A stretch of 52,919 nt of DNA, filler included, from Perkinsus olseni (lineage: Eukaryota): the NCBI GenBank assembly GCA_013115125.1. It is 3 parts of 3 records of this genome, joined end to end, with 100 filler letters (N's around TTAATTAATTAA, not from the genome) between each part and the next. Parts side by side here need not be neighbours in the genome. Positions count along the whole stretch, not along the records: positions 35,391 to 52,919 come from JABANN010000642.1; 2 more parts are not named here. One strand, given 5' to 3'. The notes under the pieces are model-generated. The model made no database searches and was not told where the DNA came from. It saw only the letters and a program-made list of their open reading frames with translations. This document shows positions 12,274-52,919 of this stretch, piece by piece (position 1 is the first letter of the stretch; every line of letters starts with the position of its first letter). The translations under genes were made by a program, and so were the position numbers.

Positions 12274-14942
<2,669 letters not shown>

Positions 14943-17624: not shown

Positions 17625-17724
17625 NNNNNNNNNNNNNNNNNNNNNNNNNNNNNNNNNNNNNNNNNNNNTTAATTAATTAANNNNNNNNNNNNNNNNNNNN
17701 NNNNNNNNNNNNNNNNNNNNNNNN
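17625..17724. other. Artificial contig spacer (N44-TTAATTAATTAA-N44)
   Basis: 100-nt linker with stop codons in all six frames, flanked by Ns. Confidence 0.97.
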
Positions 17725-20885: not shown

Positions 20886-20958
20886 GCGGCTTTGGCGCAG
20901 TAGGTAGCGCGTAGGTCTCATAATCCTAAGGTCGCGAGTTCGATCCTCGCAGGCCGCA
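20886..20958 (+). tRNA. Elongator tRNA-Met(CAT)
   Basis: GCGGCTT/AGGCCGC acceptor, GCGC D-stem, TAGGT-CT CAT AA-TCCTA, GCGAG-TTCGATC-CTCGC. Has G1-C72 and a TTC T-loop rather than initiator features. Confidence 0.93.
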
Positions 20959-35290: not shown

Positions 35291-35390
35291 NNNNNNNNNN
35301 NNNNNNNNNNNNNNNNNNNNNNNNNNNNNNNNNNTTAATTAATTAANNNNNNNNNNNNNNNNNNNNNNNNNNNNNNNNNNNNNNNNNNNN
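35291..35390. other. Artificial contig spacer (N44-TTAATTAATTAA-N44)
   Basis: Identical to the spacer at 17625-17724. Confidence 0.97.
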
Positions 35391-35669: not shown

Positions 35670-36079
35670 ACTCCTGGCCCGCTAGAGTATGCTTCCAAAT
35701 CATCCATACTATCAACAACGTATCTTGCAACAAGTTTTAGGGGATCTTCAGCGTCCGTCAGGACCTGAATGGATCCGTCACGGCGCCTCAAAATCATCCA
35801 TCCTCAATTTTGTGGCGCACGGTAATATCTGACCTCAGCCGAAGAGAATCCTCCATTCTTCATAACCTCAGCCACGTGCCCTTGATTCACCAACCAGCCG
35901 AAGAATCTTTTGGTCGTTTCGTCATCCTTGCATTTCACATTGACCTCGTAGATAACCTGAAAGTATCTTTCATAAGACTTTTGTCCCGACCTCGAAAGAT
36001 TTCCGAGAATTTCCGAATTCATCATGGAAAATATTACCTGCGTTCCGGCGGGACAGCATCCGACTGACCGTTGAGACAT
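35670..36079 (-). CDS. Small DUF4286-like (dimeric alpha/beta barrel) protein; 3' end uncertain
   Basis: MSQRSVGCCPAGTQ|VIYEVNVKCKDDETTKRFFGWLVNQGHVAEVMKNGGFSSAE|VLTDAEDPLKLVARYVVDSMDDLEAY matches the IYxV..W...H..EV...GF.SA...Y...S.EDL..Y pattern recalled for DUF4286. Confidence 0.5.
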
Positions 36080-36884
36080 GACACCAAATCTTCCGCGTGC
36101 GAGGTGGAAGATACTCGGGCGAACGAGCATCACAACAACTATTACTTGAAAATTTCCTACCAAATTTTCCGTCTTAATACCTTGGATCAATGATGGTGGC
36201 CAGAGAGATACTCGATACTACCACCCTCATAGAGATTGATAATCCATAGTGAACGAACGAGAGTGAAATTACCGCTGCGCCACGAAAATACACTTTTGAC
36301 TCCTCGATCCTTGTTCTCTCGACTCATTTGATCTGAAGGCCGACTTTAAGAAGCTCAACCTGCTAATGATGATGGCACTGGGAATCTTACATACGCACGA
36401 AATTCAAGCATAAGTATAATTCTTACTTCGAAGACACATACTGTACGTATCTTCGAGATCAATACTGACCTGGCTCCTACTTGAAATTGATGACCTCTCA
36501 ACAAGATACCCAGTTTGTAACAACTTGTACCCCAGAGGAAAGCTTTTTGAAAAACAGTCCGCGTATCAATCGCTACAGAGAGCCCCAACCACTTTTTGCA
36601 ACTTGCTCGACTACGAAGGACCCCCAGAACCATGCATGAGCGCGGAATTTGAAAAATGGCCAGTTTCCCACTATATTGAACTGGGAAAACAGAAGCAGGA
36701 GAGTATTGAGAGTAACAGTAGTAACGGAGGCTGGTAGCGGAGTGCTTTAACTCGCCACAAAGATAACACGCCTTCACGCACCCTCACTGTTATTGTTGAT
36801 GATGCTCCGGAAAATAGTAGTAATTGTTGTTGTCTCTAAGAATAGTAATACATGTAAAATGTCGATTATCGTTGACACCACAAG

Positions 36885-39443
36885 CTAGCTTGACGGCGAT
36901 CCATCCCTATTGTGTAGATCCTCGATCGATGGCTCCGGTGGTATCTCGCTTGAGGACGGCCTGGCCTCAGGCGAGTTTGGTGGTGCCGTGCTCGAAAATA
37001 CACTCCGGGGAGTTGTGAAATCATCAGAGGGAGGAGATGACGAAGACAGTGATGGTGACGGTAGACGACCAAGGCCAGCTTCGATGAGCTCCTCCGGAGG
37101 ATGCTGGTTGGGCGGGATGTCCGGACGCACATACGGCACCTTCAAGGCTTGCTGACGATATTCACCAGACCACTGGTTGAAGTCAAATTGTGTAATTTTG
37201 CTTCTTTCCATGTCGATCTCGACACACGTCCTCGACGGCAAGTAAACAGCCACTCGGAAATGTTGTTGTTCCAAGTAGAGCCAGAACAATACCGTACCAA
37301 TGAAAAGAGGAACCATCAAAGGCGAGGCGACAGCACCCTCCTTGATAGCTAGTACAGCCATAACGGTGATCTCAGCCACGATCTCACAGAAAATAATGAA
37401 ACGCATCGCCCTCGTCCACATTTGGCCTCCACTATCATGACTAGGATCATAGATAAAAGCATACTGATTCTTATAGATCAGGGCCTCACACGCAAAAGCA
37501 AACGCCATCACAAATGCAACGATCGGCGAAGTCACCGCGTAGACGAAAAGAATCATGAAAAACAACGTGACCGTAGATAGCAACGCTGGTTGGTCCAAAG
37601 TAACCGGATTGGTCAACGGCTGAAGACCGAAGAAAGGCTGGCTTCTCTCTTTCTCCGTTAACTTCGGACCCAGCTTCTCTCGGATGAGGGCCTTCACGTA
37701 AGGTGTGTAACGTAGTAGCTCGGCGCCGAGCGGTGGACCAACTTGTACGAATACAAAAGACATAAAGTAGTTCGACTGCTGCGGCAGGTTGTTACCCAAA
37801 ATATCCTGGATCGTGCCCCAGGGGTCAACGGAAAGTTCGTGCAAACTCGCGAGTAGACTACCAGCGATGGCACTGACAAAGAAGGTCTGTATAATATAAA
37901 AGGCAGCCAGCTTAGCAAACAGAGAGGCGTTCAACGCCGAGTTGGAAATATGTCCTTCCAGCTGCGAGAACAGCTTCAGGAAGACCACCAATAGGGAGTT
38001 GAGAATCGCCAGAAGGATAGGGGAAATCTGCTGAAGCAAAACGTCGATACCGGGCCAGGCTTCCGACCAGTCCTCCAAAAAAGGCAGCTCCTTCTTCAGA
38101 TTCTGAACTTGAGAAACCGAAGATACAAACGCTACCGGTACCGTCCAAAACACGCACAATACAACCGTAAGAACAATAGAAAGTAACATGCCCAACTCCT
38201 GTCTCATGTGCGGCATACCAACATTATCCCAAAACACATCATCGGGCAAGGGGGCCGGCATAGCACAGATTTTGAACGGCGTACCAGAATGCAGCATCTG
38301 CAGGGCGGACATGGAGGCCTTCAGGGACCGGAAAGTTACAAAACCGTCAGCCCTGACCTTGAACTCGGGCTTGTCACCAAATGGTAGCAAATTGGTCGGA
38401 TTCAACGCTTTTGGGAGAGGAACAATATCAGCGACATCTTTGACGATGTTAACAGGAGCTTTGGTAAGATTCTTCAGCTGCCCTGTAAGACCCTCTTCAA
38501 CCTCGACTTCCTTATCGAATCGCACTTGGAAGAGTTCATCAGCCTTCTCCTGGAAATCCTCAGCCGATCGAACCGTCCTCTCACAATATCTGTTCAAAGC
38601 CGCCAGTCGTCTCTCCAAAACCGTGATGGTGTCCATCTTTTCTTTGCCGCACATTTTCACTTTCATCTCGGGACGCTCTCCCTCGTACTCGGCCACATTG
38701 TAGGCATGCTCAAGCTTCGGTATTATCTTCGATCTCTCAGCCTCCTGTTTCTCGAGCTCGTCGATATCCAACGCCACACGAGCGTCCAAAACCTGGCCCG
38801 GGGCAACGTCTTCGAAGAAATTCCTCAACGCACGATTCGAGCGCATATCTTCTGGCAAACCACGAACAAAAACCGTATAGTTGTCCAACCTCATTCGCGC
38901 AAGATACTGATGTCTCCGACTAAGATACCAGCTGAACTCATGATAGATTAGGTACATGGAGTAACCGTAAAAGACATAGGAGGCCAATAAAGTAGCAATC
39001 AAGGCCGTGTCACCATTCAGAAGATTCCCCAGACTCCAAGATTGCATAGGGTCGCTTTCTCCAGGACTCTTCTCACGATCTTGATACTTGTAAATCGGTA
39101 TAAGATAAATTGAGTTAAAACAACCCACACACGATATTTTTACCCCCATTCTCAACATCCTGATAAAGGCAGCCGCATCGAGACCAGCATATGCAACCAG
39201 CTCATCATCACTGATCAGGACCGCGTTCCGTATCCATGACCATTTTCCGGTTTTTCTATCAGATAGAGGACAACTGAGCTCAGGGATATTATCTCGACAA
39301 TTATAAAGCTCCGGAGCCTTGGACTTCACCAGACAGTACACCAGGACCATGATGGCAAAGATACCAATGTAGATTCCAAAGGAAATCAAGACGGCCATGG
39401 AAGTGGTGGTCTTACTCGACCCGTCAGAAGAAGAGTCGGCCAT
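36885..39443 (-). CDS. OSCA/TMEM63 (CSC1/ERD4/RSN1, DUF221) mechanosensitive cation channel, 852 aa, intronless
   Basis: GLDAAAFIRML, YTVFVRGLP, GFVTFRS, APLPDDVFWDN, FWTVPVAFV, LPQQSNYFMSFV, YKNQYAFIY, DSGGQMW; multi-TM. Confidence 0.93.
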   Translation of the reverse strand: MADSSSDGSSKTTTSMAVLISFGIYIGIFAIMVLVYCLVKSKAPELYNCRDNIPELSCPLSDRKTGKWSWIRNAVLISDDELVAYAGLDAAAFIRMLRMGVKISCVGCFNSIYLIPIYKYQDREKSPGESDPMQSWSLGNLLNGDTALIATLLASYVFYGYSMYLIYHEFSWYLSRRHQYLARMRLDNYTVFVRGLPEDMRSNRALRNFFEDVAPGQVLDARVALDIDELEKQEAERSKIIPKLEHAYNVAEYEGERPEMKVKMCGKEKMDTITVLERRLAALNRYCERTVRSAEDFQEKADELFQVRFDKEVEVEEGLTGQLKNLTKAPVNIVKDVADIVPLPKALNPTNLLPFGDKPEFKVRADGFVTFRSLKASMSALQMLHSGTPFKICAMPAPLPDDVFWDNVGMPHMRQELGMLLSIVLTVVLCVFWTVPVAFVSSVSQVQNLKKELPFLEDWSEAWPGIDVLLQQISPILLAILNSLLVVFLKLFSQLEGHISNSALNASLFAKLAAFYIIQTFFVSAIAGSLLASLHELSVDPWGTIQDILGNNLPQQSNYFMSFVFVQVGPPLGAELLRYTPYVKALIREKLGPKLTEKERSQPFFGLQPLTNPVTLDQPALLSTVTLFFMILFVYAVTSPIVAFVMAFAFACEALIYKNQYAFIYDPSHDSGGQMWTRAMRFIIFCEIVAEITVMAVLAIKEGAVASPLMVPLFIGTVLFWLYLEQQHFRVAVYLPSRTCVEIDMERSKITQFDFNQWSGEYRQQALKVPYVRPDIPPNQHPPEELIEAGLGRLPSPSLSSSSPPSDDFTTPRSVFSSTAPPNSPEARPSSSEIPPEPSIEDLHNRDGSPSS

Positions 39444-39822
39444 AGTGTATGTGGACAGAGAGAAGAAGGAGACGCACTGAACCAGGATTCGGAAAAAATA
39501 CGGAAAATTTAACCAGAATAAATTTTCCGTCGCTTTTGGCCATCGAAAGTTTCAAACGAGGAGTGTCCTCACTCATGATACTTGAGCTCCCTTGAGCTTC
39601 CTTAACTTTTAGGTTCTCCAGAAATGTTACGGGCTAGGTCAGTTCCAACTCCATCAAATCTTTCATAGGGGAGGATGGGGACATCCCACACAAAAGCTGC
39701 AGTGCGCCGTTCTCGTGATCACGAGACTCCGTCACTGCGCCACAAAATTCGTCTCTCCCGTGTAGAGCCTTCCTCCCAAACGCAAAGGAAAAAATGTCAA
39801 AATTTCCGCACGTCCAAAAATT

Positions 39823-41216
39823 TTACTCTGACTTCTTTTTCTGGCCGAACACCCCGACACAGTAGCTACAGACAGGAGTACCGGTAACCATGACCTGAGA
39901 AAATGCAAGATTAGGCAAGATTTCAAGATGCATGGCACTTACCACAATCGACATGACTGCGATCGTGAGATGCAGCGCGTGGGTGGCGGGACAAATCGGT
40001 GAGGATTTTCCGCAGAGGTCATGATTAGGCATCCCGGGAATATCCGCAGCGAGATCGGACACGTATCTTCGAACATCGTGATAAGCATGCTCAACCTCAA
40101 GATTCGAGTATTTTTACTTTTCACAAATATTCAACGTGAACAGATTGTCCGAAAATCCAGAGCGTATCTTCCACTTTGCGCAGAGCACGCTCAACCTCAC
40201 GGGATTCACTGTTTCCGACGAGGGCCTATGGTCCACCTAGTTTTGATAAAAGCTAGATCTACACAAGGCGTATCTTTCGTGAAGGGCATGCTCAACCCTT
40301 CATTCACAGATAAAATACCCTCACGGGGATTCGAACCCGGGACCTACTCCGCGCCAATCATAGTAATCAGCATCCACAGCGCTCCAACAACCGGCTGGAA
40401 GAAGATACTCATCGCGCTGGCAATGTGCGCACAGCCCATAATCTTCATCAGCTGCGGCACGGTCGCAATCCCACAGAACTTCATGGCGTCCTGCAAAATC
40501 TAATTTCGAGGCGCGCGAGAAAAACGGATCATCCTTTCACCTTCATGAACTCGGTTTTGGCAAAGTAGGAGTAGGCCACCGGAAGATATGCCTGGAGATC
40601 CGACGGAGCGATGTCGTACGCACAGGCAATATTGGCGATGCCAGAACCTGAAAGAAGATGAAGAAGAATAGATCGGAATTGACATGAAAGATACGCGATT
40701 GAGGTCAAAGATACGCCATGAGATTGAGGTCAACGATACGCCACGAGGTCGACGTGGAAGATACGCCACGAGGTCGAGGTCCAAAATACGGCACGAGATT
40801 GAGGTCAAAGATACGGCATGAGATTGAGGTCAAAGATACGCAACGAGGTCGACGTGGAAGATACGCCACGAGGTCGAGGTCCAACATACGGCACGAGATT
40901 GAGGTCAAAGATACGGCATGAGATTGAGGTCAAAGATACGCCACGAGATTGAGGTCAAAGATACGCCACGAGATCGGAGTCAAAGATACGGCATGGAAAT
41001 AAGGAGCTAATTGAGCAAACGTCGATGAGTATCCTTCATGAGACATCTCGATATGCATTGAGTGGAGAGGGTCGAGTAATGAGCATGATACGATACCCGT
41101 GTGACGTCGTGAATATTGTTACCAAGGAAGATGATCATTAATCCGAAGTAGCAGCCTACGGCCACTGTCTGGAAGATGAACTTGACCATAACAACGGAAG
41201 AAGAAGAAGCTGACAT
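39823..41216 (-). CDS. Small DoxX-like multi-TM protein with C-terminal dilysine (KKKSE*), five exons
   Basis: Spliced: MSASSSSVVMVKFIFQTVAVGCYFGLMIIFLG|SGIANIA...FMK|ILQDAMKFCG...IMGCAHIASAMSIFFQPVVGALWMLITMIGAE|YVSDLAAD...VMSIV|VMVTG...FGQKKKSE. Family call is by motif resemblance only. Confidence 0.6.
40311..40347 (-). pseudogene. tRNA-like 3' half (T-arm/B-box) starting at an intron donor
   Basis: Minus strand: GTAGGTCCCGGGTTCGAATCCCCGTGAGGGTATTTT, first bases of intron 40347-40067. Confidence 0.65.
40687..40994. repeat. Intronic 25-bp minisatellite (~12 units) with a 100-bp higher-order repeat
   Basis: Unit GAGATTGAGGTCAAAGATACGCCAC plus variants GAGGTCGACGTGGAAGATACGCCAC and GAGGTCGAGGTCCAAAATACGGCAC; lies in intron 40648-41122. 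Confidence 0.95.
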
Positions 41217-41728
41217 CACGACCACTCTCTTACGTACTAATGATAATACTCACATATCTTCTACTGTATGCTATATACGTTATTCGTATCTTTAGGTCGC
41301 CCGCGCAAGTTTTACTGTATAAAGATACTCACATACATATATTGAAGCGTGCATCACAATTACTCAATAATTAACATATCCGCTACCATCACCCTCTCCC
41401 CAGGGAAAGGAAATTCATTCTTTGTTCCCTATTCTACCTTGACCCGGCGAGAGGCGGAAGAAAACAAAACCGACTGCGTGACGCACGGACGCAAGAACGT
41501 CTGTCATCCCGCAGGGACCTGCCCTAGTAGCACAGCTCCGGGGTTACAACCAGAAACACAACGGTTGTCCCCACAGGGCAGAAGGGCCCGAGTGAACCAA
41601 CTCGAGCTGCGGATGGCGAGTGAAAGCCATAGAAAAAACGATACCCGCTCATCATTCAACTGAACACAACTGAGAACTCAAAACTATTAATAAACGGAAA
41701 ATTATCAATCGTAAAATTCAACTCGACA

Positions 41729-44700
41729 TTATTCGTTCGGCCCCTTCAAGGACTCACCTTCTTCCATATTGACCAATTTCTTTGATCGTTTCCCGCGCGC
41801 CAGAAAAATATAACAACAACTAGCCAGAAGGAGACCGGCGAGCAGTCCTCCTGACGACGCTAGAAAAATCGCCAGGAAGTTATTCGATCCAAATCGATCA
41901 AGTGATCGATTCTGACATTCGGCCTCATCTGGGACCAGAGAGCGGAGATGATCCAGAACCGACGTGACGTTACAAGTAGATCTGAGAAAGACAAAACTCG
42001 AGGAGCAGAAGTCTATTAGAATAAAATCTTGCAATCTTGAATTTCCTCAAACTATGCCACAAGCAAATCTTGCTCTCTCTTACTTCCCTCGGCATTCCTG
42101 GACGCCATCCGCTGTGGCAACTCGGCCGTTGTAAATAAATCTTGCCGAATTGTCGGAATAAAACTCCACGATGAGCATTGACCCAAAAGAAGGCCAAATC
42201 GATGAACATAACTTACCCGAATCCTGCCCTGAACGGAAACCAGATGCCTTTCACCGCGCCACAAAATTCTTCACCGCGCCGCGAAATTCGGATGGGAAAC
42301 TACTGGAGGGAGGCAAGATAAGCTCCTCTCGTGCAAGTGCTATTTGGCTATCCCAGCAAATGTGATGTCAGAAACCACGGGTGAAGAAAGCACAAAACCA
42401 GAATAATTTTCCCCTTACATCGTAGTCCTAATGCGGAGAGCATTTCACCCATCGGCCCCGTATCGTGACCAGAATAAAGAGAGAAGCTGCGGCCCGAGAT
42501 CGTCAAGTCGTTAAAGACATCCTGAGAAAACGAAGTCATGCCACCAAGGATCTCAAAACATGAAAACGGGAAGCACGTCGAAGCTTTCTCTTCGACCACC
42601 TTCGAGGCAGTAGTCGATTCTCAACCAAAGACGCGTCTTGGAGATCAGAAGAAGCATGAAGACTGTCGATTGCTTACTCGGATGAGCGGCCCGATCGAAT
42701 ATCGCAGTAAATCCGGAGTGACTTGATATCGACCGATGGACCAAAACCTGCAGAGTAGTCGAAAGGTCCCTGGTTCGAACCCCACACCCGATAGTCCGAC
42801 GAACTTGAGCAAGAGACACGCTCACATATCAAAGAAGGCAAAGTTTTCCCCATACACTCCCACGTTAGTCGTGAGAAGGTCTGTAGCCAACCGAGAGGCC
42901 CCTGGTTCGAACCCTGCTCACGTCGCTTCATTCACTATATGATTCCATAAGTCACCGCCAATCTCTAATCCAGTAGGCAGCTTTTTCGGCTCACTCGGTA
43001 CGGTAGAGCAAGCATGACTCATCAGACAGTCCTGAATATCTTGCAATCTCGCATTTTCCCAACGCAATCATATTACCAGCATCCTCCCATAAATCTTGGC
43101 AAGGTTAGCCGGGTCGCCGTTCATCCAAGCGTCACTGCGCCCCGTAATTTTCCCGATTTTCTCTCTCATTCTTTCCGAGTTCTTCACATGCTCTCTGGCT
43201 TCTTTCGACTCCAAGAAAACTCTCTCTGCCGCAGAAAATGCTGGACAAACCTGCGAAGAATTGATCGAGTAATTCCGTCACGCGCCACGAAATTCCCAAC
43301 GCGACTCACATCCGGATTCGGCTCCATACCATCCACCGTACGGTCTGGTACAACAACTTCAAAGGCTGTGTTATTTCCTGAGGCATATCAGGTATTGCAA
43401 TTTCGCTCGCCCAAAATTATCAAACCGTCCAAAACACGCCCTCACTCGAAGATTACGCGGTGGATGAGGACTCATTGAGCATGACACTGTAACGCTGATC
43501 CAAAGGCATTCCACATCATCTATCACACGACCGCGCGCCACGAAATTCGCCCCCGCCAGATGAGACGGCATCACCATCATCATTCGGAAACATTCCCATC
43601 GTCAAGGCTTGCGCGCTCTCGATCGTCCGAGGGCAGTCATCCGCTCGTATCATCACCTTGGGGTTAGCCGGACTCTAACGGAAACGAATGAAGAGAGTTG
43701 AGACTACGGGGAGGGGAGCTCACCTTGTCCAGTTTGAGCGCTTCGCCATAAGCGTTTCTCAATGCTTGTCCATTCGCTATTTGCATGTCAATTCCCGAGT
43801 CAACTAATTGGCCTAGAAGAAAGGGAGCAGGGATAGAACCATGGACCTCGGGAATGGAAGTTAGTTGAGTTGCCCACTGCGCTATTTTACCTAATATACA
43901 GTTGCCACGGAGGCTGCCGAGGTCGCCGCGCACTCGTAAAAACTTCGGAGAGAAGGAACCTTCCAATCGCTCATAGCCGGAAAACGTTTGGCTGCTGCAA
44001 GAGTATCTGAGGTTGAACCATGCAGGATACACAAAAACTCAGCTGCACCTTACACCGTTTCATCCCCCTCCCAGCATCCTTTACTCTGAGTCAAAACTCG
44101 ACTACCATGGCGAACGAAAGTCAGGACGCGAGACTGAAACAACACACCACCACACAGCATACTCGATCCCTCGCTTGGAATGGTAGGTCAATCCAAAGGT
44201 CTTTCCGAAGGGGTCCGAGGGTTCCTAGAACCAAAGGGGTACGGAGATGAATGATAACTGCAAGCAATAGCCCACAGCACATTGACCTATCCACCCAACC
44301 GAGGGTCTCTAGAATGCGCGTCTTATCTGAACCCCTGTGTGTTTGCCGTAGAAACTTTTCACACGCACGATCCAAATGCACAGGCTGTCGTGGCAAAAGG
44401 ACAAAGTACTGGAGCGCGGCCACCGAATCTCGTTGAAGCGATTTCGCCTCTAGGGGTGGCTCCAGCGGCTGAGGCTTTCCCTATACATCGTGCTGTATAT
44501 GGTACGATCGCCACGTCTCTCAGCACAAAGGGTTTCATCGAACTCGGCTGTATCGGGAATACCCCTACGTAACCCTCTCTGTTCCCCCGGCCGCAACAGG
44601 TGTGAGTGACACTGGACACTAAGTAGACATAGGAGGAAGAGCATCCCCAAACGGCCTTGGCAGCACAAAGCCCCGGACCCGATGCTGCTCCCGTATGCTA

Positions 44701-45081
44701 ATCAACAGAGGTAAGCCTGTCGTTTACCAAGTCGATATTATCATCACGCCCCTCGGGATCGCGAAAATAGCACTACGTCAACTGGGACGATGAAACGTTG
44801 AAACAACTCAAGTTGATGAGGATTTGTTGCGCGGTGTCACCAACCACCCTCAAAGTGCCCAAAATTGCAATTTTCTAGGGGAAACAGTAATTTCTAGTTC
44901 GACTGAATTAACAAATATTCCCATCCATTCCAACTACTACCACTGTGCTGCCTCTATTCCCCACAAATGGCGGTGTCGGCCATTTGAGATCTGCGTGACA
45001 GTAATACAGCGGCTCATCCTCGGGGAAAGCCTCGATGATGGGGGCACATAGTAATAGTGGAAGAAGGAAGGTTAACAACAT
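41729..45081 (-). CDS. Histidine acid phosphatase (lysosomal/prostatic type), signal peptide and C-terminal TM, multi-exon
   Basis: MLLTFLLPLLLCAPIIEA...GNRGSTV|SRVLTFVRHGSR (RHGxR), CILG|QLVDSGIDMQ, IRADDCPRTIESAQAL, SIGPLIR, FSLYSGHDTG (HD), TM LAIFLASSGGLLAGLLLASCCYIFL. Confidence 0.88.
42760..42792 (+). pseudogene. tRNA-like T-arm/B-box element, antisense in phosphatase intron
   Basis: GAAAGGTCCCTGGTTCGAACCCCACACCCGA. Confidence 0.6.
42890..42921 (+). pseudogene. tRNA-like T-arm/B-box element, antisense in phosphatase intron
   Basis: CCGAGAGGCCCCTGGTTCGAACCCTGCTCAC; ends exactly at the minus-strand donor. Confidence 0.6.
43813..43890 (-). pseudogene. 78-nt intron that is a full-length degenerate tRNA-like sequence (A-box and B-box at tRNA spacing)
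   Basis: GTAAAA TAGCGCAGTGG GCAACTCAACTAA CTTCCAT TCCCG AGGTC CATGG TTCTATC CCTGC TCCCTTTCTTCTAG. Confidence 0.65.
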
Positions 45082-46833
45082 GATAACTGGCACATCGGCC
45101 GACACTATGATCACGAGTATTGTACTGTTTATACCGCTGATCCCATCTTGCTCGCTGAGCTGAGCTAAAGCGTAGATCATCTACGTCACTTACGTCATCT
45201 GCGGTAGATGACGCGAAGACAATAGGTCAATGATGGGATCCCAGATAGCAAGACCCGGGTATTGTATTCTCAATGAGCGATTATCTTTGACTATCTTTCC
45301 TTGGCCTCTTCGAACCGTATTTCTATTCAGCTTCTCAATAATCATCTACTTAAGAGATGTTCTTGAGTAGACGATTATTGTTGCATGATTGTATTATTAT
45401 GATTGCAGCTGCTGGATATCTCTGTTCCGAACAGAGATACCCAGGGGCTGCCCTTCGAACTAAACTCCCAAGGTTTGGGCTTACCCTCGACAGCGACTAG
45501 AACGACGTACAGTGCGAACCAAACCGTTATGCAAATCACCTTTTGTGAGACAACTTGCTCTATAAGGAGAGTTTATAAATGGAACTCGAAAGGTGTACTG
45601 ATAATGAGAGAGAAAATCGATTGACACCGTTTCAGAACCGTTTCATCATCCATCCTTATGTTACGAGCGCGCGAAAATTTCCGGACCCTGCCGACCGACC
45701 CAAACCGTTGTACACTGTGTATGGTTCCTCTTCGCTCCGCTGGGAGAGTCTCCATTCGGGATAGAATGGAATTAGCAACATTCGTCGCTGGGTCCTGATG
45801 CTGTCAACGTTCAGCACACACCGGTGTCTGTTTGATTGCCTGCCCCTATATTGCTAACTGAGATTTTACCCATCCGAGATCACCCTCAGCTCCACCTCTC
45901 GAAAAGTCGCTAACTCAATATCTGTCAATATCCGGAGTCAGACACCGTATGACCAAGTAGTATCACCGAGGCCTGGGTGTCAAAATCTGCGAAATGCGTT
46001 GATTCCACCACCCCCTTCACTCACCCGAAGATTCCTGCATCTCACGATCTCTCTCGATGGGCCTAATAAACCATGCAGGTGAAGTACTAGCAATTACTAC
46101 TGATCGGATAGTAGCGCGCAGTATTATGGGCACCAGACGAGGCATTAGGTATGCCATACCTACATGTCTAAGGATGTTATTAACAAGACGAGATTGGGAC
46201 GTACGAAAGGTATGGTCGTCGGCCCTCTCATGAGCGTTACAACCACAAGGCCCCTAGCTCAGCGGACTCCACCGAACACAACTTCCAATAGGAGCATCCT
46301 CCATATTGGAGATACAAGGACGACAAAGACTCATGATGGAAAAGCCTTGCTAAGTGAGTATCAATAGACAGAGCGAGAAGTACAAGTACGGGTGAGCTCT
46401 TGTAAGCACCCGAGTCTAGAAGGAGAACGACCACCTCCAGTCTGAATCGAGCTCCGCAGACAGAGGGGCGTCAACGTCTCAGAGGATGAAACGCTACGAA
46501 GGCTGATCCCCAACGTCGGAGCGAATATCTGTCAAGCCGCTATCCACTGTTCCCGAGCCAAAGGCTCTTCCCCAAGTCGGAGATAAACCGGCTATCATAC
46601 GAAAACGATCAGCTCATTGGGGTACGTGATAACGAGAACCACGAAAATAGAATGATAACAATAATGACAACCATTACAACATCATCAACATGGAAAGGCA
46701 TCATAAGAGCTGAAAGAAAGTCGGAATTGAATAGCGAATCCATGGAGAGTGACGCCAGTTCACAAAATGATAGACCACCTCAATGCCAGTATAATACCAT
46801 AACTTCCCCAAATCACAATAACTAAGACACTGA

Positions 46834-47247
46834 TCACCAAGGGCATTCACCCGGGCTCAAGATTTGGGGGTTTGCCTCGACCGACATCTGGATGGTATTA
46901 GTTTGCCAATAGTAATCATACTTGAAGAAATCATTGTCGTCGAAGTGGTAATTTGGGCAGTCATCCCTGACCTCCCTCATGAAAGCATCGTATGCCTCTG
47001 TGCTACTGTTGTCGATCTCATAATGGAAAGGGGTAGTCTCTCGGACGTGGACCTTTCCCAATGTCCTAACCTCGGTCACACAGTTGAATAGGAGGCTGAT
47101 GTGGTCACCCTCGAACCATTCCACCTGAATGCACTCAAAGAGAGGGCCGAGTATTTTGAAGTACTTCCCTCTTGGTGGACCAGCTCGTGCGAGTACCGGT
47201 TGGAGTGGTACGATAAGGGAAGCGCAGAGAACAATAAGGACCAACAT
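46834..47247 (-). CDS. Small secreted hypothetical protein, intronless
   Basis: Signal peptide MLVLIVLCASLIVPLQPVLA followed by GPPRGKY and a Cys-containing ~120-aa domain. Confidence 0.65.
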   Translation of the reverse strand: MLVLIVLCASLIVPLQPVLARAGPPRGKYFKILGPLFECIQVEWFEGDHISLLFNCVTEVRTLGKVHVRETTPFHYEIDNSSTEAYDAFMREVRDDCPNYHFDDNDFFKYDYYWQTNTIQMSVEANPQILSPGECPW

Positions 47248-47481
47248 GACTGTTAATGATGCCTGAGGAATGTTTGGACAGTTGAGGAAATGCAAGTGAG
47301 TTCAAGAGAGCCAAGATTTCTAGCAGGTGTTTATGTAATAGAGCATCGATTGTGGGGCTAATTAAGCACTTCTCATCTGGCAACCAGACTGTCACTTGCC
47401 CGTAGAGGCGTTAATAGTAGGATATCCGAGGTTGAAGCTGGTTAGATACAGAACAGGTTAAGTTGTGAGCTATTGTTGTTA

Positions 47482-50400
47482 ATGATCCGTCCTCCACTCT
47501 CGATCTTTCTTTCTGTCATAACAGCCACACTTGCTGCTGCTGCAGCTGACAACGAGTGGCAGACTGTGACAGCAAAGTTCAATCCGAAAACTAACCAAAT
47601 TGTGTACAACGATGTCAAGTTCGCTGGCCCGGAAGTCTTGGACCACACGCACTTCGCCTTCAATACGATCATGACGGTCGTCTGTGTGGTAATGATAAAA
47701 CCCTACAGATTTACTATCTTCCATGGACCGAATCTTTCATACTGGACGTATGCACGTATGGGTCTTAAAACTCTGTGAGATATCTTCTTCCGTACTCGAT
47801 ATTAGGTAAGGAGGTTATGCTTTTCTTAAGTACTTTGTCTACCATTGCGTACGAAGTGGGAGTTGCATGCCTAGTAGAATGACTAATGACGAAAGTTAAG
47901 CATTTATTGAGCTAGTATGTGCACGTCAACTCCGAGCATGCGCGCCGTCTTTTGGAGGTATCTTTTATTCATGCTGGTTTCATACATAATAACCTCGTTT
48001 CATCTATAGTCCCATTAACTCGAGCGTATAGTTTTTACTTTCGTCGTTCATGCTGTTCAGATCTGTGCTGCTCTAGCCTCCGGTTTGACGATGGGATTGG
48101 TATCTTTGGACGACTTCGACCTTCGAATACTGATGGAATCCAGTGAGGATGATGTGCCCGACCCTGCTGATAAAGCTGAGATGAGAAAGGAGAAGCAAGC
48201 TGCTATTAAGTTGTAATATCGACCGTGTCGTCGCTGGCCCTTGTTTGTATTCCCCTTCTTCGAAAACCTTCGCTGTGCGCTCTTCGTGGTATCTCTGACC
48301 GATTTCAGCTGCCAAGCTTGTGTATCTTGCGGTTTGCGTAGAGAGCGCTCCCCCGTGCGCATACAAATGCTTTTTTGTTCTATCATGTCAGGCATCCTTT
48401 GATCTCTCGTCACCATCTCCTGCTTGTGACTTTACTTTTGGTAAACTCGTTGGCAAACGAAGCTTTGCCGCTTTTCCTGGACCAAATAGTACCTCCATAC
48501 ATGGCAGTGCTGGTGTCAGTCACACTGGTAATAATAAAGGGGATATCTTGCACGCGTGCGCAAAATCTTCCGAGTGCGCTCCATTGATCTATCTGGAGTT
48601 GTACAAGAGTGCGTTACTGGTCTTCTCTTCGAAGATTTTCATGAGGGCTGGGGAATCTTTACTGTGCGGGCTGAGTATCTTACCGTTCGTATGCCCATCA
48701 GGTGTTAGTATTTGGCGAGATAATCCCATCGGCGGTATTCACAGGACCAAATCAATTATCAATAGGAGCCGCCTTCTCACCGTTAGTCAAGTAGTGCGGG
48801 ATGGGTGTCGGTGCTGGGATTCGAACTCGGGGTCTCGTTTGGACTTAAAACTGCGGTATTAGGGCGCCTCGAGGTTCCGGGGGTCGTCATTCGTACTTGT
48901 TGACACGTGGGTTCGCAAATAACACAGAAAATGTGTATCTTTCGATCGAAGTTAGACTTCCCCACGAGTTCCGATAGAAATGACCCAACCGGGGTTCGAT
49001 CCAGGTTCATGATGATAGTCGTTTACCCAGTGGCGGGTCCGGTCGCCTGGTGCCTCGATAAGACGCTGGGAGAGGAGCACAAGGGACGGTACAATAAGGC
49101 GGAGTTCAAGGCGTTGTTGAACTTACATCAATATGACGACGTACTGGGAGAGATATCGGGTTCGATCCTCGGTGAAGGCATTCTCATCGCTTTTATGGCT
49201 TCTCTGAACTGAGAATATCGCGCCAGTTTATGTGCGGACAACGAAGGGTCTAATGAGTGGTTGATAGTCGGCTATTAGATGTCTTCGAAATGAGCGTTGC
49301 GCACGTTGAAGGATTCTGAAATTGGTGATGCTTGGTCGCTCAGACTGGAGATGTTGATATAGAGACGGGTATAAGCGGTCAGTCTTCACCTTTGGATACC
49401 CACACGACGACAGGGGGAGATGGTCCAACCGGGAGAGGGGAAGTCCACCATCATGTAATGAGCGAGGTCGTGGGTTCAAATCGAGTCGGGGGAAAACGAA
49501 AGTTCACGTCATTTTCGCGTCCACGATTTTGCCTTTAACAGGGAAGTGAAACTTCAAGTTCTAGTTCGGGAGTGACAATTTCGGAGAAGCATAATCACGA
49601 TTCGATCCTCGCCACTTGAAACTTACAGTAGTCCGCAGATGTGCTCAGGTTAGAAATTCTAGATGACCTTCTGACAGCCGGGCCGAGTAGTCGACCTTTT
49701 ACTACGCCAAATGGGTTTCCATAATTCTGAGTTCAGTTCTTGTCGATCGACTTGTCGATTTTGACGGAGAACTAGCTCACTGGGAATGGAAGACTTCACG
49801 CTGGATTTACTGTTCCGTTGTGATTTTATTTGCGGATAACTCGGATGGATTCTGGTCAGGTCCAATTACACTCCCGCGGTGGCATCACGAAGGAAGAGCT
49901 CCGAATGATGCAGGGGGCGTTGGAATTACATCGTCTCAAAGTAAAGGATGTAATGACGCCGTTGGACCAGGTAATAGGACGCGACCTGGTGGGATAGTTT
50001 ACACGGATATAGACCAGTGAAGGAGATGGAGATCCTTCCAGATTGGTATCCGTAAAAATTTAGTATTGATTCATGCGAGTTGGATGAGCCTTTTCTATCC
50101 TGGATGAGAAGGGCATATCCAATTCGGACAAATTGCCCAAGGATTGTGAATCGCAACTCCGCAAGTGGGGAACAACTCAGAGTGAATTTCGTTAAAACTC
50201 GACTGACGTATGAATGATACCGTTGGCTTTCTTGTAGGGGGCTGCAATCGTTGTGGAAGAGAGGGCTCGTTGAATGATGTGCGGAAGGAGTGGTATGGTT
50301 TATAATCTTAGTCCCCCCATGTTGTGTAGTATCATGTTAGCACATCAAAGAATACGAGCGCTGATGTGTGGGTCACTTCGAACTTGTTTATAGTTCATGA

Positions 50401-52500
50401 ATTATGGAAGATGCCCTATCTGCCTAATCGGTCGGAATGGCGCGCGCTTTGTGCAACTCAGGTAGCAATGTATTCAGCGGACCAAGTTCTGGATTCCAAG
50501 ACACTCCAGGATATCATGGAGAAGGGTCATTCGAGATTGCCGATTTACCAGGGCCATCCACACAACGTAGAAAGGCCGGGGGTGGGAGTCGAACCAGGGA
50601 CCTTTGGGATGAGAGTGTTGAGCAGGTGCATGGCATGCTGCTCGTGAAGCGTTTGATTGTTTTAAATCCAGAAGATAAAGTACAGATAGGAAACACAGAT
50701 TTGTTGGAACCGATGGTAGGTGACCGGGAGAGCGCTTTCCGCTTTTCGTAATTTAGCAAAATTGTGAGTTGGGCGGAGCGAAGCGAGTCGTGCTTGTCAG
50801 ATTTGCGATATGGATACTACGCTGCTGGATATGCTCTATGAATTTTCAACTGGCAGAAGCCATTTAGCAGTAGCGACGGATGATCCTGAGAGGGTAGAAA
50901 GTTCATACCAACTTTTTCGCGAAACATGGCGCATCTTTTCAGGTTATCCAAGCCATCCACGACGACAAACAGATTCCGTGCAATATTCACATGGCGGGAA
51001 TCATCACGTTGGAAGATGTGATTGAGAGATTGATAAAACATGACATTCAAGGTAGGCGTTAAAACGTTTGGATATAATAGCGTAAAAAAATCCGGGTGAG
51101 GTCAGCCTGTTCGAAGCGGGCATGAAGATTGTATCCGGTCGATGTATGGCTAGACGTACTGCGTTTGTTATGGGAGTGTGTTACGTCTCAGCGCATCTTA
51201 AAGTCGACCCTGAAAGATACAAGTGAGGTCGATTTATTTTCAGATGAGAGTGATATATCAGTGACGTTGCAACCTGTACTGCATCTACCGACCTCGAGCG
51301 GGAGCAAGATCAAGATGTAAGATATTCTCGTTTCGGGTTGGAGAGCATTCCTACGTACGTGAAGATGAGGTCGGGATTCCGAGCTGGTCCTGGATGCCTC
51401 TTTGGAAGGCATAATTTCATTCCATTTTGCCCTGGGACGAGTAAATTCCGCACAATATCGACCCGGAATATCTTTCTGACGCTCCCACCCTTTGGAGATC
51501 CACGTGATGTCTGGCAGTCGCAGTGGCTGCAGTCATCGAGAAGCAACCGTTTCGTTTGGAAATTTCCTGTTCTTCGTAACGGATCGGCGGTAACGTCCTT
51601 TTGCCGCCCTGGTGTACTCCGTTTTCTGTTCTGTGTTTACTACATGTTAACTATGTGTTAACTTCTCTCTCCGTTCACTGACCTTCATCATTGCTACATC
51701 CTCGTCGTCATGCTCCCAGAAAATGGCCTCTCTTCTTTAGAGAGGCAATGTTCGACGTTTGTCCAGAGAATCGAGCTATGCCGTGTACGCATCTTTGTTC
51801 ACTCGGATTGGCACCCGGTCGTTATGGCTGTCGGTGGAATATTCATCGTCATTTGTGTTGTTCCTGTCAGTCCCCCTTCCCCGCGTGGTCGTAGCATCAG
51901 GGTTAACGCCCCATCGGGTGTGTTGTCGATAAAACATCAGCCGGCTAACGGAGTTGGAAGTGGGTCTCACTTCTCTTCTGAGTATCTTGAGATGCTTGTT
52001 ATTCTAGGGTCGACTTCGGCGAAGGTGTTGCACTCCTCGTCATCGCAGGCGGGCAAGGAGAGTCCCTCACTTGTGGTGAGTAGCTGGTTAAGACTCGCGA
52101 TCTTCATTTGAGAGGTCCCTGGTTCTATCCCCGCTCGATGAATTTTGCCCTCAGACGCCTCTGCTCAAGGACGCGTCTCCTATGAATCACAGTCCGATGC
52201 CGGTAATCTCCGAGTCATCGCCAATGTCGGGCCACTCGGCGTCGTCATCGAAAAGTGAGTCGATCGCTTCGATCTTGCTAATCTTGCTCACCTTACAATT
52301 CCTCTAGGCAAGAAAAACCCCTCTGTTGGCCCCTCAACGTTGCCACCGAAACCCATGGCGTCTCCCGAATTAGGGAAACAAGGAAAAAAGGACGTCAAAA
52401 ATACAGGAGGTGAGGAGGTATCTTGTTTTCCGTGAAGAGCATGGGGAACCTCGATAGTTGTTCTGGTGGAGCAACTTTCTCGGAATGGTTATGACTACTG
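47482..52500 (+). CDS. CNNM/DUF21-CBS domain membrane protein (metal transporter family), multi-exon; 3' end approximate
   Basis: Signal peptide at 47482; CAALASGLTMGLVSLD, HHLLLVTLLLVNSLANEALPLFLD, YPVAGPVAWCLDKTLG, MQGALEL..KVKDVMTPLD, GHSRLPIY, GRSHLAV, GIITLEDVIERLI. Confidence 0.88.
48802..48856 (-). pseudogene. tRNA-like 3' part, antisense near 5' end of CNNM intron 48791-49004
   Basis: Minus strand: GCAGTTTTAAGTCCAAACGAGACCCCGAGTTCGAATCCCAGCACCGACA. Confidence 0.5.
49141..49182 (+). pseudogene. tRNA-like T-arm at the start of a CNNM intron
   Basis: GTACTGGGAGAGAT ATCGGG TTCGATC CTCGGT GAAGGCA; T-stem still pairable. Confidence 0.6.
49455..49496 (+). pseudogene. tRNA-like 3' half at the start of a CNNM intron
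   Basis: GTAATGAGCGAGGTCGTGGGTTCAAATCGAGTCGGGGGAA. Confidence 0.5.
50567..50625 (-). pseudogene. 59-nt CNNM intron filled by an antisense tRNA-like 3' half
   Basis: Reverse complement: CTCTCATCCCAAAGGTCCCTGGTTCGACTCCCACCCCCGGCCTTT; exons join as GHPHN|VHGMLLVK. Confidence 0.65.
52073..52154 (+). pseudogene. 79-nt CNNM intron (52076-52154) resembling a decayed tRNA-Glu(TTC)
   Basis: GTG|GTGAGTAGCTGGTTAAGACTCGCGA TCTTCAT TTGAG AGGTC CCTGG TTCTATC CCCGC TCGATGAATTTTGCCCTCAG; exons join as SPSLV|TPLLK. Confidence 0.65.
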
Positions 52501-52851: not shown

Positions 52852-52918
<67 letters not shown>

Positions 52919-52919
52919 G
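52852..52919. repeat. (TTG)n microsatellite at contig end
   Basis: More than 20 uninterrupted units up to the window end. Confidence 0.97.

What the first reader, a model, noticed from the sequence alone, without database searches (positions are those of the whole stretch)
43813..43890. Whole intron is a tRNA ghost: boxes and spacing kept, stems lost
Seen: counting from the exon-terminal G, TAGCGCAGTGG starts at position 8. It is followed by a CT-TCC-AT anticodon-like loop, AGGTC and GGTTCTATCC at near-canonical tRNA offsets, then a pyrimidine tract and TAG. The acceptor, D and anticodon stems do not pair. The intron is 3n and stop-free. Inference: selection on the DNA promoter boxes rather than RNA structure, or a tRNA/SINE head converted to an intron.
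Basis: partly seen in the sequence, partly recalled or inferred. Interest (0 to 1): 0.7.

Follow-up and report, generated by a model that had tools for sequence, protein, structure and literature searches.

The report
tRNA-like relic forming a Perkinsus intron
A 78-base intron in a phosphatase gene of the shellfish parasite Perkinsus is almost entirely a decayed copy of a tRNA-like repeat, one of several such relics at intron ends nearby, which hints that these elements may have seeded introns.

Summary
Window 43813-43890 (minus strand) is a real GT..TAG intron of a Perkinsus olseni-type histidine acid phosphatase gene. The annotated protein lacks exactly these 26 codons, and RNA-contig coverage in four runs fits splicing.

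In strict tRNA register it keeps 17 of 18 conserved tRNA nucleotides, including the A box, a CTTCCAT loop at 32-38, AGGTC and the B box. It forms only 8 of 21 cloverleaf pairs, which is the level of shuffled sequence.

A sequence-only tRNA model scores it 19.0 bits (E about 6e-5), the same as a real untrained tRNA-Ser. Adding structure drops it to 9.5 bits (E about 2), while real tRNAs gain 17-22 bits.

It is not unique. Eight such relics lie in 7 introns of two neighbouring genes, in both orientations and close to intron ends. They fall into subfamilies that share bases outside the promoter boxes, so they are copies by descent.

Best reading: a decayed tRNA-derived, SINE-head-like repeat that now serves only as an intron and probably created it. 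In-situ selection on TFIIIC boxes is not excluded. No genome-wide census or orthologue comparison was possible. Published surveys list no introner families in Perkinsus.

The parts
43813..43890 (-). 78-nt GT..TAG spliceosomal intron. Its whole body is the tRNA-like relic (tRNA positions 2-79).
   Evidence: Sequence. 26-residue gap against P0012. Coverage of 204 nt in four runs. Sequence-only tRNA model 19.0 bits, E=5.7e-5, over 43826-43885.
43874..43884 (-). A-box-like TAGCGCAGTGG at tRNA positions 8-18
   Evidence: Pattern match; register confirmed.
43854..43860 (-). Anticodon-loop-like CTTCCAT at positions 32-38 (C32, T33, TCC, A37)
   Evidence: The flanking stem forms 1 of 5 pairs.
43830..43848 (-). 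Family core AGGTCCATGGTTCTATCCC: variable-loop AGGTC plus the B box, with T at position 57
   Evidence: Matches 52105-52136 at 84% over 32 nt, E=1.4e-4.
43813..43829 (-). TGCTC, then a pyrimidine tract and the TAG 3' splice site
   Evidence: TGCTC is shared with the copies at 52132-52136 and 42915-42919.
43891..44006 (-). Upstream exon (..YSCSSQTF..GNCILG) of the His_Phos_2 phosphatase gene
   Evidence: P0012 mapping; coverage arithmetic.
43724..43812 (-). Downstream exon (QLVDSGIDMQ..KLDK)
   Evidence: P0012 matches Pfam His_Phos_2, E=2.5e-12, across the junction.
52076..52154 (+). Sister relic: a 79-nt GTGAGT..CAG intron of a plus-strand gene, same orientation as the gene. The A box is shortened by about 4 nt.
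   Evidence: Local alignment to the focal unit scores 46 against 15.0 (sd 2.7) in shuffles, 0 of 1000 as high. R2 10.4 bits, E=0.027. Read-through meets a stop. Coverage of 207-208 nt fits splicing.
50567..50625 (+). 59-nt intron filled by an antisense relic (relic on the minus strand, tRNA positions about 24-68)
   Evidence: RNA joint 50566/50626 in four runs. R2 18.2 bits, E=1e-4, at 50579-50623(-).
42748..42921 (-). 174-nt intron of the same phosphatase gene, with two antisense cores (42762-42785 and 42889-42918 on the plus strand), one near each end
   Evidence: RNA joint. R2 E=0.017 and 0.088. Internal 23-nt repeat at 91%.
40067..40347 (-). 281-nt intron of the same gene. It begins GTAGGTCCCGGGTTCGAATCCCC, a sense core at the 5' end.
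   Evidence: P0012 mapping; sequence. R2 19.2 bits, E=4.8e-5, at 40323-40360.
48791..49004 (+). 214-nt intron with an antisense core at 48804-48830
   Evidence: RNA joint. R2 10.0 bits, E=0.036.
49455..49859 (+). 405-nt intron with a sense core at 49464-49482, 9 nt from its 5' end
   Evidence: RNA joint. R2 9.5 bits, E=0.05.

Best explanation
The segment is an ordinary, efficiently removed spliceosomal intron of a Perkinsus histidine acid phosphatase gene. Its sequence is a decayed copy of a tRNA-related repeat of the SINE-head type.

Shown:
- The unit keeps the Pol III A box, an anticodon-type loop, AGGTC and the B box at exact tRNA spacing, but has no cloverleaf.
- It belongs to a small dispersed family. 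Members lie in both orientations in introns of two neighbouring genes, close to intron ends.
- Members share bases outside the promoter boxes, so they are copies by descent.

Inferred:
- The boxes look preserved because the source copies needed an internal Pol III promoter to propagate, while their stems were free to drift. The inserted copy itself needs no selection.
- Because the unit and the intron coincide within 1-3 bases at the 5' end and the intron ends 17 bases after the B box, the insertion most likely created the intron. The 5' splice site would come from the unit's first bases (G|GTAAAA; G|GTGAGT in the sister copy). The pyrimidine tract and YAG would come from its 3' trailer.
- Today it probably does nothing beyond being spliced out.

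My odds: tRNA-related repeat relic about 0.8; intron born from the insertion about 0.5.
For: Intron status:
- Exact 26-residue gap against P. olseni protein P0012.
- 204 covered bases in the bin 43805-44165 in four runs, equal to 8+116+80 exon bases (my arithmetic).

tRNA relatedness without structure:
- 17 of 18 conserved positions in register, score 29 of 30. A score of 29 or more occurs in 9 of 1000 simulated windows and 0 of 5000 self-shuffles.
- The sequence-only model R2 (16 E. coli and 2 window tRNAs) gives 19.0 bits, E=5.7e-5, over model positions 7-66. The real, untrained tRNA-Ser gives 19.4.
- The structure model R1 gives 9.5 bits, E=1.9, while the three real tRNAs rise to 68.7, 55.8 and 36.7.
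- Rfam tRNA gives no match even at E<=10, and ARAGORN finds nothing here.
- 8 of 21 pairs, equal to the shuffle mean of 7.45; fold z=+0.14.

Family by descent:
- R2 lists 20 matches at E<=10: 3 real tRNAs, 8 others at E<0.1, and 9 weaker ones.
- All 8 lie in 7 of the 23 introns I listed between 39826 and 52414. Those introns make up 30% of that stretch.
- Focal against the sister intron 52076-52154: local score 46 against 15.0 (sd 2.7), 0 of 1000 shuffles as high, 36 of 46 columns identical.
- Subfamily flanks beyond the B box: CCCYGCTC in three copies and CCCACNCCCG in two.
- The core AGGTCCCTGGTTCGA occurs 9 times at up to 3 mismatches against 1.66 expected.

Link to intron ends: in the five hits that lie in introns over 150 nt, the distance to the nearer end is 0-14 nt (Fisher combined p=0.0015). 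Three short introns (78, 79 and 59 nt) are nearly filled by one unit.

Look-alikes: the same 19-nt core fetched tRNA-like SINE-type heads of other eukaryotes from metagenomes, and ARAGORN calls none of the 31 loci a tRNA.

Context: P. marinus carries more than 500 copies of five tRNA genes, including 116 tRNA-Gly-GGA (Kojima and Jurka 2013, PMC3706591, sections 10 and 13 read).
Against: - No whole genome was available, so the copy number, the full element and any intergenic copies are unknown.
- I see no target-site duplication beyond the splice consensus, no A-rich or repeat tail, and no tRNA-unrelated body.
- Copies share only 20-46 nt at 79-91%.
- Two published introner surveys list no introners for Perkinsus. 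The 2025 table gives 0 families for all 9 assemblies. The 2022 table gives 0 for the two of its 11 Perkinsus rows that I saw.
- Similarity between the two full-length copies is uneven: 23 of 25 columns from GAGGTCC onward against 13 of 21 before it (my count). That would also fit selection on the core.
- All relics lie in two genes. None lies in the first 39 kb, and I cannot explain that.
- No orthologue lacking the intron was seen, so intron creation is an inference from co-extension only.
- The progenitor tRNA was not identified.
Confidence: 0.55

Rival explanations
1. The boxes are kept by selection at this site. The intron would hold a TFIIIC-binding element (A plus B box, or B box alone, like ETC sites) that acts on DNA, for example in chromatin organisation or Pol III recruitment. 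RNA structure would then be irrelevant.
For: - 17 of 18 conserved positions are kept while the stems are at random level. Uniform neutral decay of a true tRNA gene cannot produce this.
- The B-box pattern occurs 10 times against 1.55 expected.
- The core is better conserved between copies than the rest.
Against: - The conserved block extends 10 nt upstream of the B box (AGGTCCCTGG), and copies share bases after it. That points to descent, not convergence on a binding motif.
- Position 57 is T, not a purine. The sister copy has a shortened A box.
- Most copies have no A box at all.
- There is no run of four T on the sense strand within or just after the intron.
- Seven intron sites within about 12 kb is, from recall, far denser than known ETC sites.
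Confidence: 0.15
2. It is the remnant of a once-functional tRNA gene nested in a pre-existing intron. The intron shrank around the gene, and the gene later died.
For: - Perkinsus has very many tRNA genes (PMC3706591), and this 53-kb window alone has three.
- The unit has full tRNA length and register.
Against: - Stems are fully randomised while the conserved nucleotides are almost intact. That does not fit decay of a real gene.
- Homologous units with the same broken T stem occur in other introns, so the stemless state predates this copy.
- The antisense and partial copies at intron ends are not explained.
Confidence: 0.1
3. The tRNA-related repeat landed in, or replaced the inside of, an intron that already existed. 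The relic is real, but it did not create the intron.
For: - In the longer introns (174-405 nt) the relic is only a small part.
- There is no target-site duplication or presence/absence evidence for a gain.
Against: - For the 78-, 79- and 59-nt introns almost nothing but the unit is left. The shortest introns seen here are 45-49 nt, so an older intron plus the insert should be over 100 nt.
- Cores sit at intron ends more often than random placement predicts (p=0.0015).
Confidence: 0.15
4. The resemblance of an ordinary intron to a tRNA is chance.
For: - A score of 29 of 30 turns up in about 1% of simulated 53-kb windows, and many windows were screened.
- The A-box pattern alone is not enriched.
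Against: - The intron is homologous to a second intron (0 of 1000 shuffles) and to further cores.
- The sequence-only tRNA model gives E=5.7e-5.
- 0 of 5000 self-shuffles reach the score.
Confidence: 0.03

Closest known systems
tRNA-derived SINE heads (tRNA-related region of short interspersed elements)
   Same: Internal A and B boxes at tRNA spacing, with the cloverleaf lost and multiple diverged copies. The identical 19-nt core AGGTCC-N-TGGTTCTATCCC occurs in SINE-type heads of other eukaryotes fetched from metagenomes, and ARAGORN calls none of them a tRNA.
   Different: No tRNA-unrelated body, tail or target-site duplication is seen. The unit ends within 17 nt of the B box at a splice site. 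Upstream of the core those foreign heads share only the generic A box with this unit. No SINE of Perkinsus turned up in the paper search (listing only).
Introners (intron-generating transposable elements; Gozashti et al. 2022 PMC9860276 and 2025 PMC12130899)
   Same: A repeated element is co-extensive with short introns, occurs in both orientations, lies at intron ends, and appears several times in one gene.
   Different: Copies are old and short (20-46 nt alignable). There is no TSD or TIR. The relation is to tRNA and Pol III rather than to a transposase or reverse-transcriptase element. The words tRNA and SINE do not occur in the main text of either paper. The 2025 survey table lists 0 introner families for all 9 Perkinsus assemblies. 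The 2022 table lists 0 for the two Perkinsus rows I saw. One Polarella family carries an automatic 'tRNA' label but was finally classed as LTR/DIRS.
ETC / B-box-only TFIIIC sites of yeasts (recalled from the literature, not read here)
   Same: B-box consensus without a functional tRNA.
   Different: Here an A box and an anticodon-type loop are also in register, copies are related by descent, and the sites are intronic and dense. Occupancy is unknown.
Amplified tRNA genes and Dada transposons of Perkinsus marinus (Kojima and Jurka 2013, PMC3706591)
   Same: Same genus. It shows that tRNA sequences are unusually numerous and dynamic there (349 tRNA-Leu, 116 tRNA-Gly-GGA, and others). The focal loop carries TCC, the anticodon that reads GGA.
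   Different: Those are intact genes more than 95% identical to their consensus, targeted by a DNA transposon at the A box. The relics here are stemless, intronic and not flanked by Dada ends. No link was shown.

Membership tests
tRNA gene (Rfam RF00005) | Cloverleaf with four paired stems | tested here: not met
   8 of 21 pairs against a shuffle mean of 7.45; real tRNA-Met has 20 of 21. MFE z=+0.14 with no cloverleaf.
tRNA gene (Rfam RF00005) | Reaches the family's gathering score, or is called by a tRNA finder | tested here: not met
   No RF00005 match at the gathering score or at E<=10. ARAGORN finds none here. My own structure model gives 9.5 bits, E=1.9.
tRNA gene (Rfam RF00005) | Conserved nucleotides (T8, A14, G18, G19, A21, T33, R37, Y48, GTTC, A58, C61) in register | tested here: met
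   17 of 18; only R57 fails. The sequence-only model gives 19.0 bits, E=5.7e-5.
tRNA-derived SINE | Internal Pol III A and B boxes at tRNA spacing, with tRNA structure not required | tested here: met
tRNA-derived SINE | tRNA-unrelated body and a 3' tail (A-rich or simple repeat) | tested here: not met
   The intron ends 17 nt after the B box, and no tail is present.
tRNA-derived SINE | Target-site duplications | tested here: inconclusive
   Only TAG|G is shared at both junctions, and that is splice consensus (read by eye).
tRNA-derived SINE | Many dispersed copies forming families | tested here: inconclusive
   8 loci and 2 subfamilies in this window. The genome was not available.
Introner (intron-generating element) | Element co-extensive with introns, with splice sites at or beside its ends | tested here: met
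   The 78-, 79- and 59-nt introns are each nearly filled by one unit. Cores lie near intron ends, p=0.0015.
Introner (intron-generating element) | Many near-identical intron copies across the genome | tested here: not met
   Copies align over only 20-46 nt at 79-91%. Published surveys list 0 families in Perkinsus.
Introner (intron-generating element) | Intron absent at the same site in a related genome or allele | not testable with these tools
   No DNA from other Perkinsus species could be reached. The second allele's protein model (P0013) starts differently upstream and is uninformative.
ETC-type TFIIIC site | B-box consensus GGTTCGANNCC | tested here: inconclusive
   GGTTCTATCCC matches except for T at position 57 (the pattern allowed N there).
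ETC-type TFIIIC site | TFIIIC occupancy and conservation of the site in orthologues | not testable with these tools
   No binding data or orthologous DNA was available.
Spliceosomal GT-AG intron | GT..AG borders and removal from mRNA | tested here: met
   GTAAAA..TAG. Exact 26-residue gap in P0012. Coverage arithmetic in four runs.

The most novel reading that the evidence does not exclude
Perkinsus carries, or carried, a family of tRNA-derived, Pol III-promoter-bearing elements that generate spliceosomal introns on insertion. The element's first bases would supply the 5' splice site, and its pyrimidine-rich trailer the 3' site. This would be a tRNA/SINE-type introner that similarity-based surveys missed because the copies are short and old. 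It would explain why some Perkinsus genes are packed with introns next to intron-free neighbours.
Probability: 0.3. Interest if true: 0.8.

Novelty: new variant of a known kind. Interest (0 to 1): 0.55.

Why it matters
How new spliceosomal introns arise is a long-standing question. Known intron-generating elements are mostly DNA transposons and some retrotransposons. In both large surveys the main text never mentions tRNA or SINE, and their tables report no introners for Perkinsus.

A tRNA-type element that coincides with whole short introns, recurs at intron ends in both orientations, and lives in a genus with unusually amplified tRNA genes would add a new source of introns. It would also link Pol III-type repeats to gene structure in the sister lineage of dinoflagellates.

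If it instead proves to be an old neutral relic, it is still a clean example of how tRNA promoter boxes outlast tRNA structure. It also warns that structure-based tRNA finders are blind to such sequences.

Tried and rejected
- The whole genome of the window is not held. No census was therefore possible.
- Earlier findings of this scan: nothing by place, sequence or words.
- Read laying printed 15 of 25 joints, and the focal joint was not among them. I used bin coverage and record lengths instead.
- The protein search with the read-through frame found nothing among proteins of 68-217 aa (8 candidates, none at E<=0.001). The hope of seeing orthologous introns as read-through ORFs failed. The 'longer' search gave only two P. 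olseni models.
- Pfam on single exon pieces matched only one piece weakly.
- The metagenome scan for the 19-nt core gave 31 loci. None is Perkinsus-like. Seven are a bacterial coding motif (EGPWFYP.. by my reading). L024 shares 4 more bases, which I take as chance.
- Upstream parts of the SINE-type loci share only the A box with the focal unit, so no specific relationship is claimed.
I replaced them with a first-order Markov null.
- I considered target-site duplication (TAG|G on both sides) and rejected it as splice consensus.
- I considered the ACTAAC at intron positions 26-31 as a branch point and left it open, because it lies 47 nt from the 3' site.
- I considered Dada transposon ends and LTR primer-binding sites as sources of the core. 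I rejected them because the core covers tRNA positions 44-62, not the 3' 18 nt or the A-box target.
- Papers: no paper holds both 'introner' and 'tRNA-derived'. The search for Perkinsus with SINEs and retrotransposons gave 5 papers, none on the subject by title or abstract.
Full report
**Where we are.** The window is eukaryotic, with short GT-AG introns. An 888-aa open frame at 36885-39551(-) is 98% identical to a Perkinsus olseni protein, and the next hits are P. chesapeaki and further P. olseni proteins. The window therefore comes from P. olseni or a very close relative. No whole genome is held for it.

**The gene.** The finding lies on the minus strand in a multi-exon gene running from about 45050 to 39826.
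- Its product matches the annotated P. olseni protein P0012 (498 aa).
- P0012 matches Pfam His_Phos_2 at E=2.5e-12 over residues 49-263.
- The RHGSR motif is encoded near 44090.

**Is it an intron?** Yes.
- The frame 43664..44038(-) reads through the 78 nt.
- P0012 is identical to both flanking exons and has a gap of exactly the 26 read-through residues...GNCILG|QLVDSG....
- Four RNA-type runs give spliced contigs over this gene. The focal joint was not among the 15 of 25 joints printed.
- In all four runs the bin 43805-44165 holds 204 covered bases after dividing by the contig's depth. That equals the exon parts 43805-43812 (8), 43891-44006 (116) and 44054-44133 (80). Retention would give 282. 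This is my arithmetic.
- The neighbouring bins fit the exon model to within 1 nt.
- The 3n, stop-free property is not informative. About 0.29 of random 26-codon stretches are open.

**Is it tRNA-like?** Yes, by sequence and register.
- With the last exon G as position 1, the unit has T8, A14, G15, G18, G19, A21, C32, T33, A37, C48, G53, T54, T55, C56, A58, C60 and C61. Only position 57 (T, not a purine) fails.
- A score over these 18 positions, allowing the usual D-loop and variable-loop lengths, gives 29 of 30. That is third in the window behind real tRNA-Met and tRNA-Gln (30 each). The next loci score 27 (49430+) and 26 (52076+).
- A score of 29 or more occurs in 9 of 1000 first-order Markov windows and in 0 of 5000 shuffles of the intron.
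- The other 17 introns scored reach at most 26.

**Are the stems gone?** Yes.
- 8 of 21 cloverleaf pairs (G-U allowed), against 7.45 (sd 2.05) in shuffles. The real tRNA-Met has 20 of 21.
- MFE z=+0.14 with no cloverleaf, while the two real tRNAs fold as cloverleaves.
- ARAGORN and Rfam see only the three real tRNAs. Rfam finds no tRNA match here even at E<=10 on 141 nt or on the whole window.

I built two models from one alignment of 16 E. coli tRNAs and 2 tRNAs of this window (A2).

| Locus | Sequence-only model R2 | Structure model R1 |
|---|---|---|
| Focal unit, 43826-43885(-) | 19.0 bits, E=5.7e-5, model positions 7-66 | 9.5 bits, E=1.9 |
| Real tRNA-Ser (not in training) | 19.4 bits | 36.7 bits |
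| Real tRNA-Met | 46.5 bits | 68.7 bits |
| Real tRNA-Gln | 36.6 bits | 55.8 bits |

So boxes and spacing are kept and the stems are lost. That is a measured result. The E-values are rough because the calibration was short.

**It is not alone.**
- R2 lists 20 matches at E<=10: the 3 tRNAs, 8 others at E<0.1, and 9 weaker ones.
- The eight are 40323-40360(-), 43826-43885(-), 50579-50623(-), 42762-42785(+), 52082-52137(+), 48804-48830(-), 49464-49482(+) and 42889-42918(+).
- All eight lie in 7 introns of two genes, four in the sense and four in the antisense orientation of the host gene.
- Five of the eight are in introns defined independently by RNA joints.
- The 23 introns I could list make up 30% of 39826-52414. 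That list is not exhaustive.
- None lies in the first 39 kb.
- The core AGGTCCCTGGTTCGA occurs 9 times at up to 3 mismatches against 1.66 expected. The B-box pattern occurs 10 times against 1.55.

**Copies by descent.**
- The intron 52076-52154(+) is a 79-nt GTGAGT..CAG intron. Read-through hits a stop, and coverage of 207-208 nt in three runs fits splicing.
- It aligns to the focal unit with local score 46 against 15.0 (sd 2.7), 0 of 1000 shuffles as high, and 36 of 46 columns identical.
- It also starts G|GTGAGTAGC, like G|GTAAAATAGC. Its A box is about 4 nt shorter.
- Intron-against-intron BLAST shows that similarity among introns is confined to these units and to one other motif.
- The units fall into two groups that share bases after the B box..CCCYGCTC (43813, 52076, 42889) and ..CCCACNCCCG (42762, 50579).
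- The conserved block also includes AGGTCCCTGG, which is not part of the B box.
- This argues for a repeat family rather than independent convergence on a TFIIIC motif.

**Position in introns.**
- Three short introns (78, 79 and 59 nt) are almost filled by one unit.
- In the five hits within introns over 150 nt, the distance to the nearer intron end is 0, 3, 9, 13 and 14 nt. The Fisher combined p against random placement is 0.0015.
- The shortest introns here are 45-49 nt. A pre-existing intron plus a 60-75-nt insert should therefore exceed 100 nt.
- Co-extension therefore favours birth of these introns from the insert. This is inference. I found no target-site duplication beyond splice consensus, and no orthologue to compare.

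**Why would boxes outlast stems?**
- Uniform decay of a real tRNA gene cannot randomise 21 pairs while sparing 17 of 18 conserved bases.
The latter is the usual state of SINE heads.
- The shared stemless T arm in several copies and the non-promoter bases they share favour the second explanation.
- The same 19-nt core fetched SINE-type tRNA-like heads of unrelated eukaryotes from metagenomes. ARAGORN calls none of the 31 loci a tRNA. Upstream they share only a generic A box with this unit, so this is an analogy and not kinship.

**Literature.**
- Kojima and Jurka 2013 (PMC3706591; sections 10 and 13 and passages read) report more than 500 copies of five tRNA genes in P. marinus, including 116 tRNA-Gly-GGA and 349 tRNA-Leu-CTT. 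They also report Dada transposons inserted in tRNA genes.
- The focal loop carries TCC, which reads GGA. This is suggestive only.
- Gozashti et al. 2022 and 2025 (passages and supplementary tables searched) do not mention tRNA or SINE in the main text. The 2025 table lists 0 introner families for 9 Perkinsus assemblies. The 2022 table lists 0 for the two of its 11 Perkinsus rows that I saw.
- No paper in the library holds both 'introner' and 'tRNA-derived'.
- Two supplementary files of the 2025 paper were not searched.

**Verdict.** The thing is a real intron made of a stemless tRNA-related repeat, and it is a member of a local family tied to intron ends. That the element created the intron is the most parsimonious reading but is unproven. 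In-situ selection on the boxes remains a live rival. A genome-wide census and an orthologue comparison would settle it.

Noticed in passing
window 9318-9332, 35805-35819, 36276-36290, 39736-39750, 40501-40515, 42255-42289, 43281-43295, 43534-43548: A second repeated motif, GAATTTYGTGGCGCG, occurs 9 times at up to 3 mismatches against 1.39 expected. Five copies lie in introns of the phosphatase gene, and two form a 20-nt tandem pair. Its meaning is unknown. It is not obviously part of the tRNA-like unit.
   Followed up: partly
window 49420-49490 (+): A tRNA-like register score of 27 of 30 straddles the exon/intron junction at 49454/49455. A GTA triplet (Tyr anticodon letters) at tRNA positions 34-36 coincides with the GT of the 5' splice site. 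On its own the score is not significant: 0.46 positions at 27 or more are expected per window.
   Followed up: partly
window 12581-12652, 15381-15462, 20886-20958 (+): Three intact tRNA genes (Gln-CTG, Ser-GCT, Met-CAT) lie within 9 kb. This density is in line with the many tRNA genes reported for the genus.
   Followed up: no
window 40693-40990: A 25-nt minisatellite of 11.9 copies, with a 100-nt higher-order period, lies inside an intron of the phosphatase gene.
   Followed up: no
window 39826-45050 (-): The two public P. olseni protein models for this locus disagree. P0012 skips exons at 41915-42226, which P0013 and the RNA contigs include. P0013 has a different N-terminus that does not map to the window. 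Both join the phosphatase domain to a C-terminal hydrophobic part.
   Followed up: partly
window 45545-45666: One contig of run X7 differs from the window at 18 positions and 3 indels within about 120 nt. It may be a diverged allele or a paralogue.
   Followed up: no
window 1-39000 versus 39800-52400: Intron density is very uneven. Long single-exon frames (888, 476 and 473 aa) sit next to genes with exons of about 70-170 nt and more than 12 introns. All the tRNA-like relics lie in the intron-rich genes.
   Followed up: no
window 17625-17724, 35291-35390, 52852-52919: There are four 44-nt runs of N, in two pairs. A (TGT)n microsatellite of 22.7 copies lies at the window's end.
   Followed up: no
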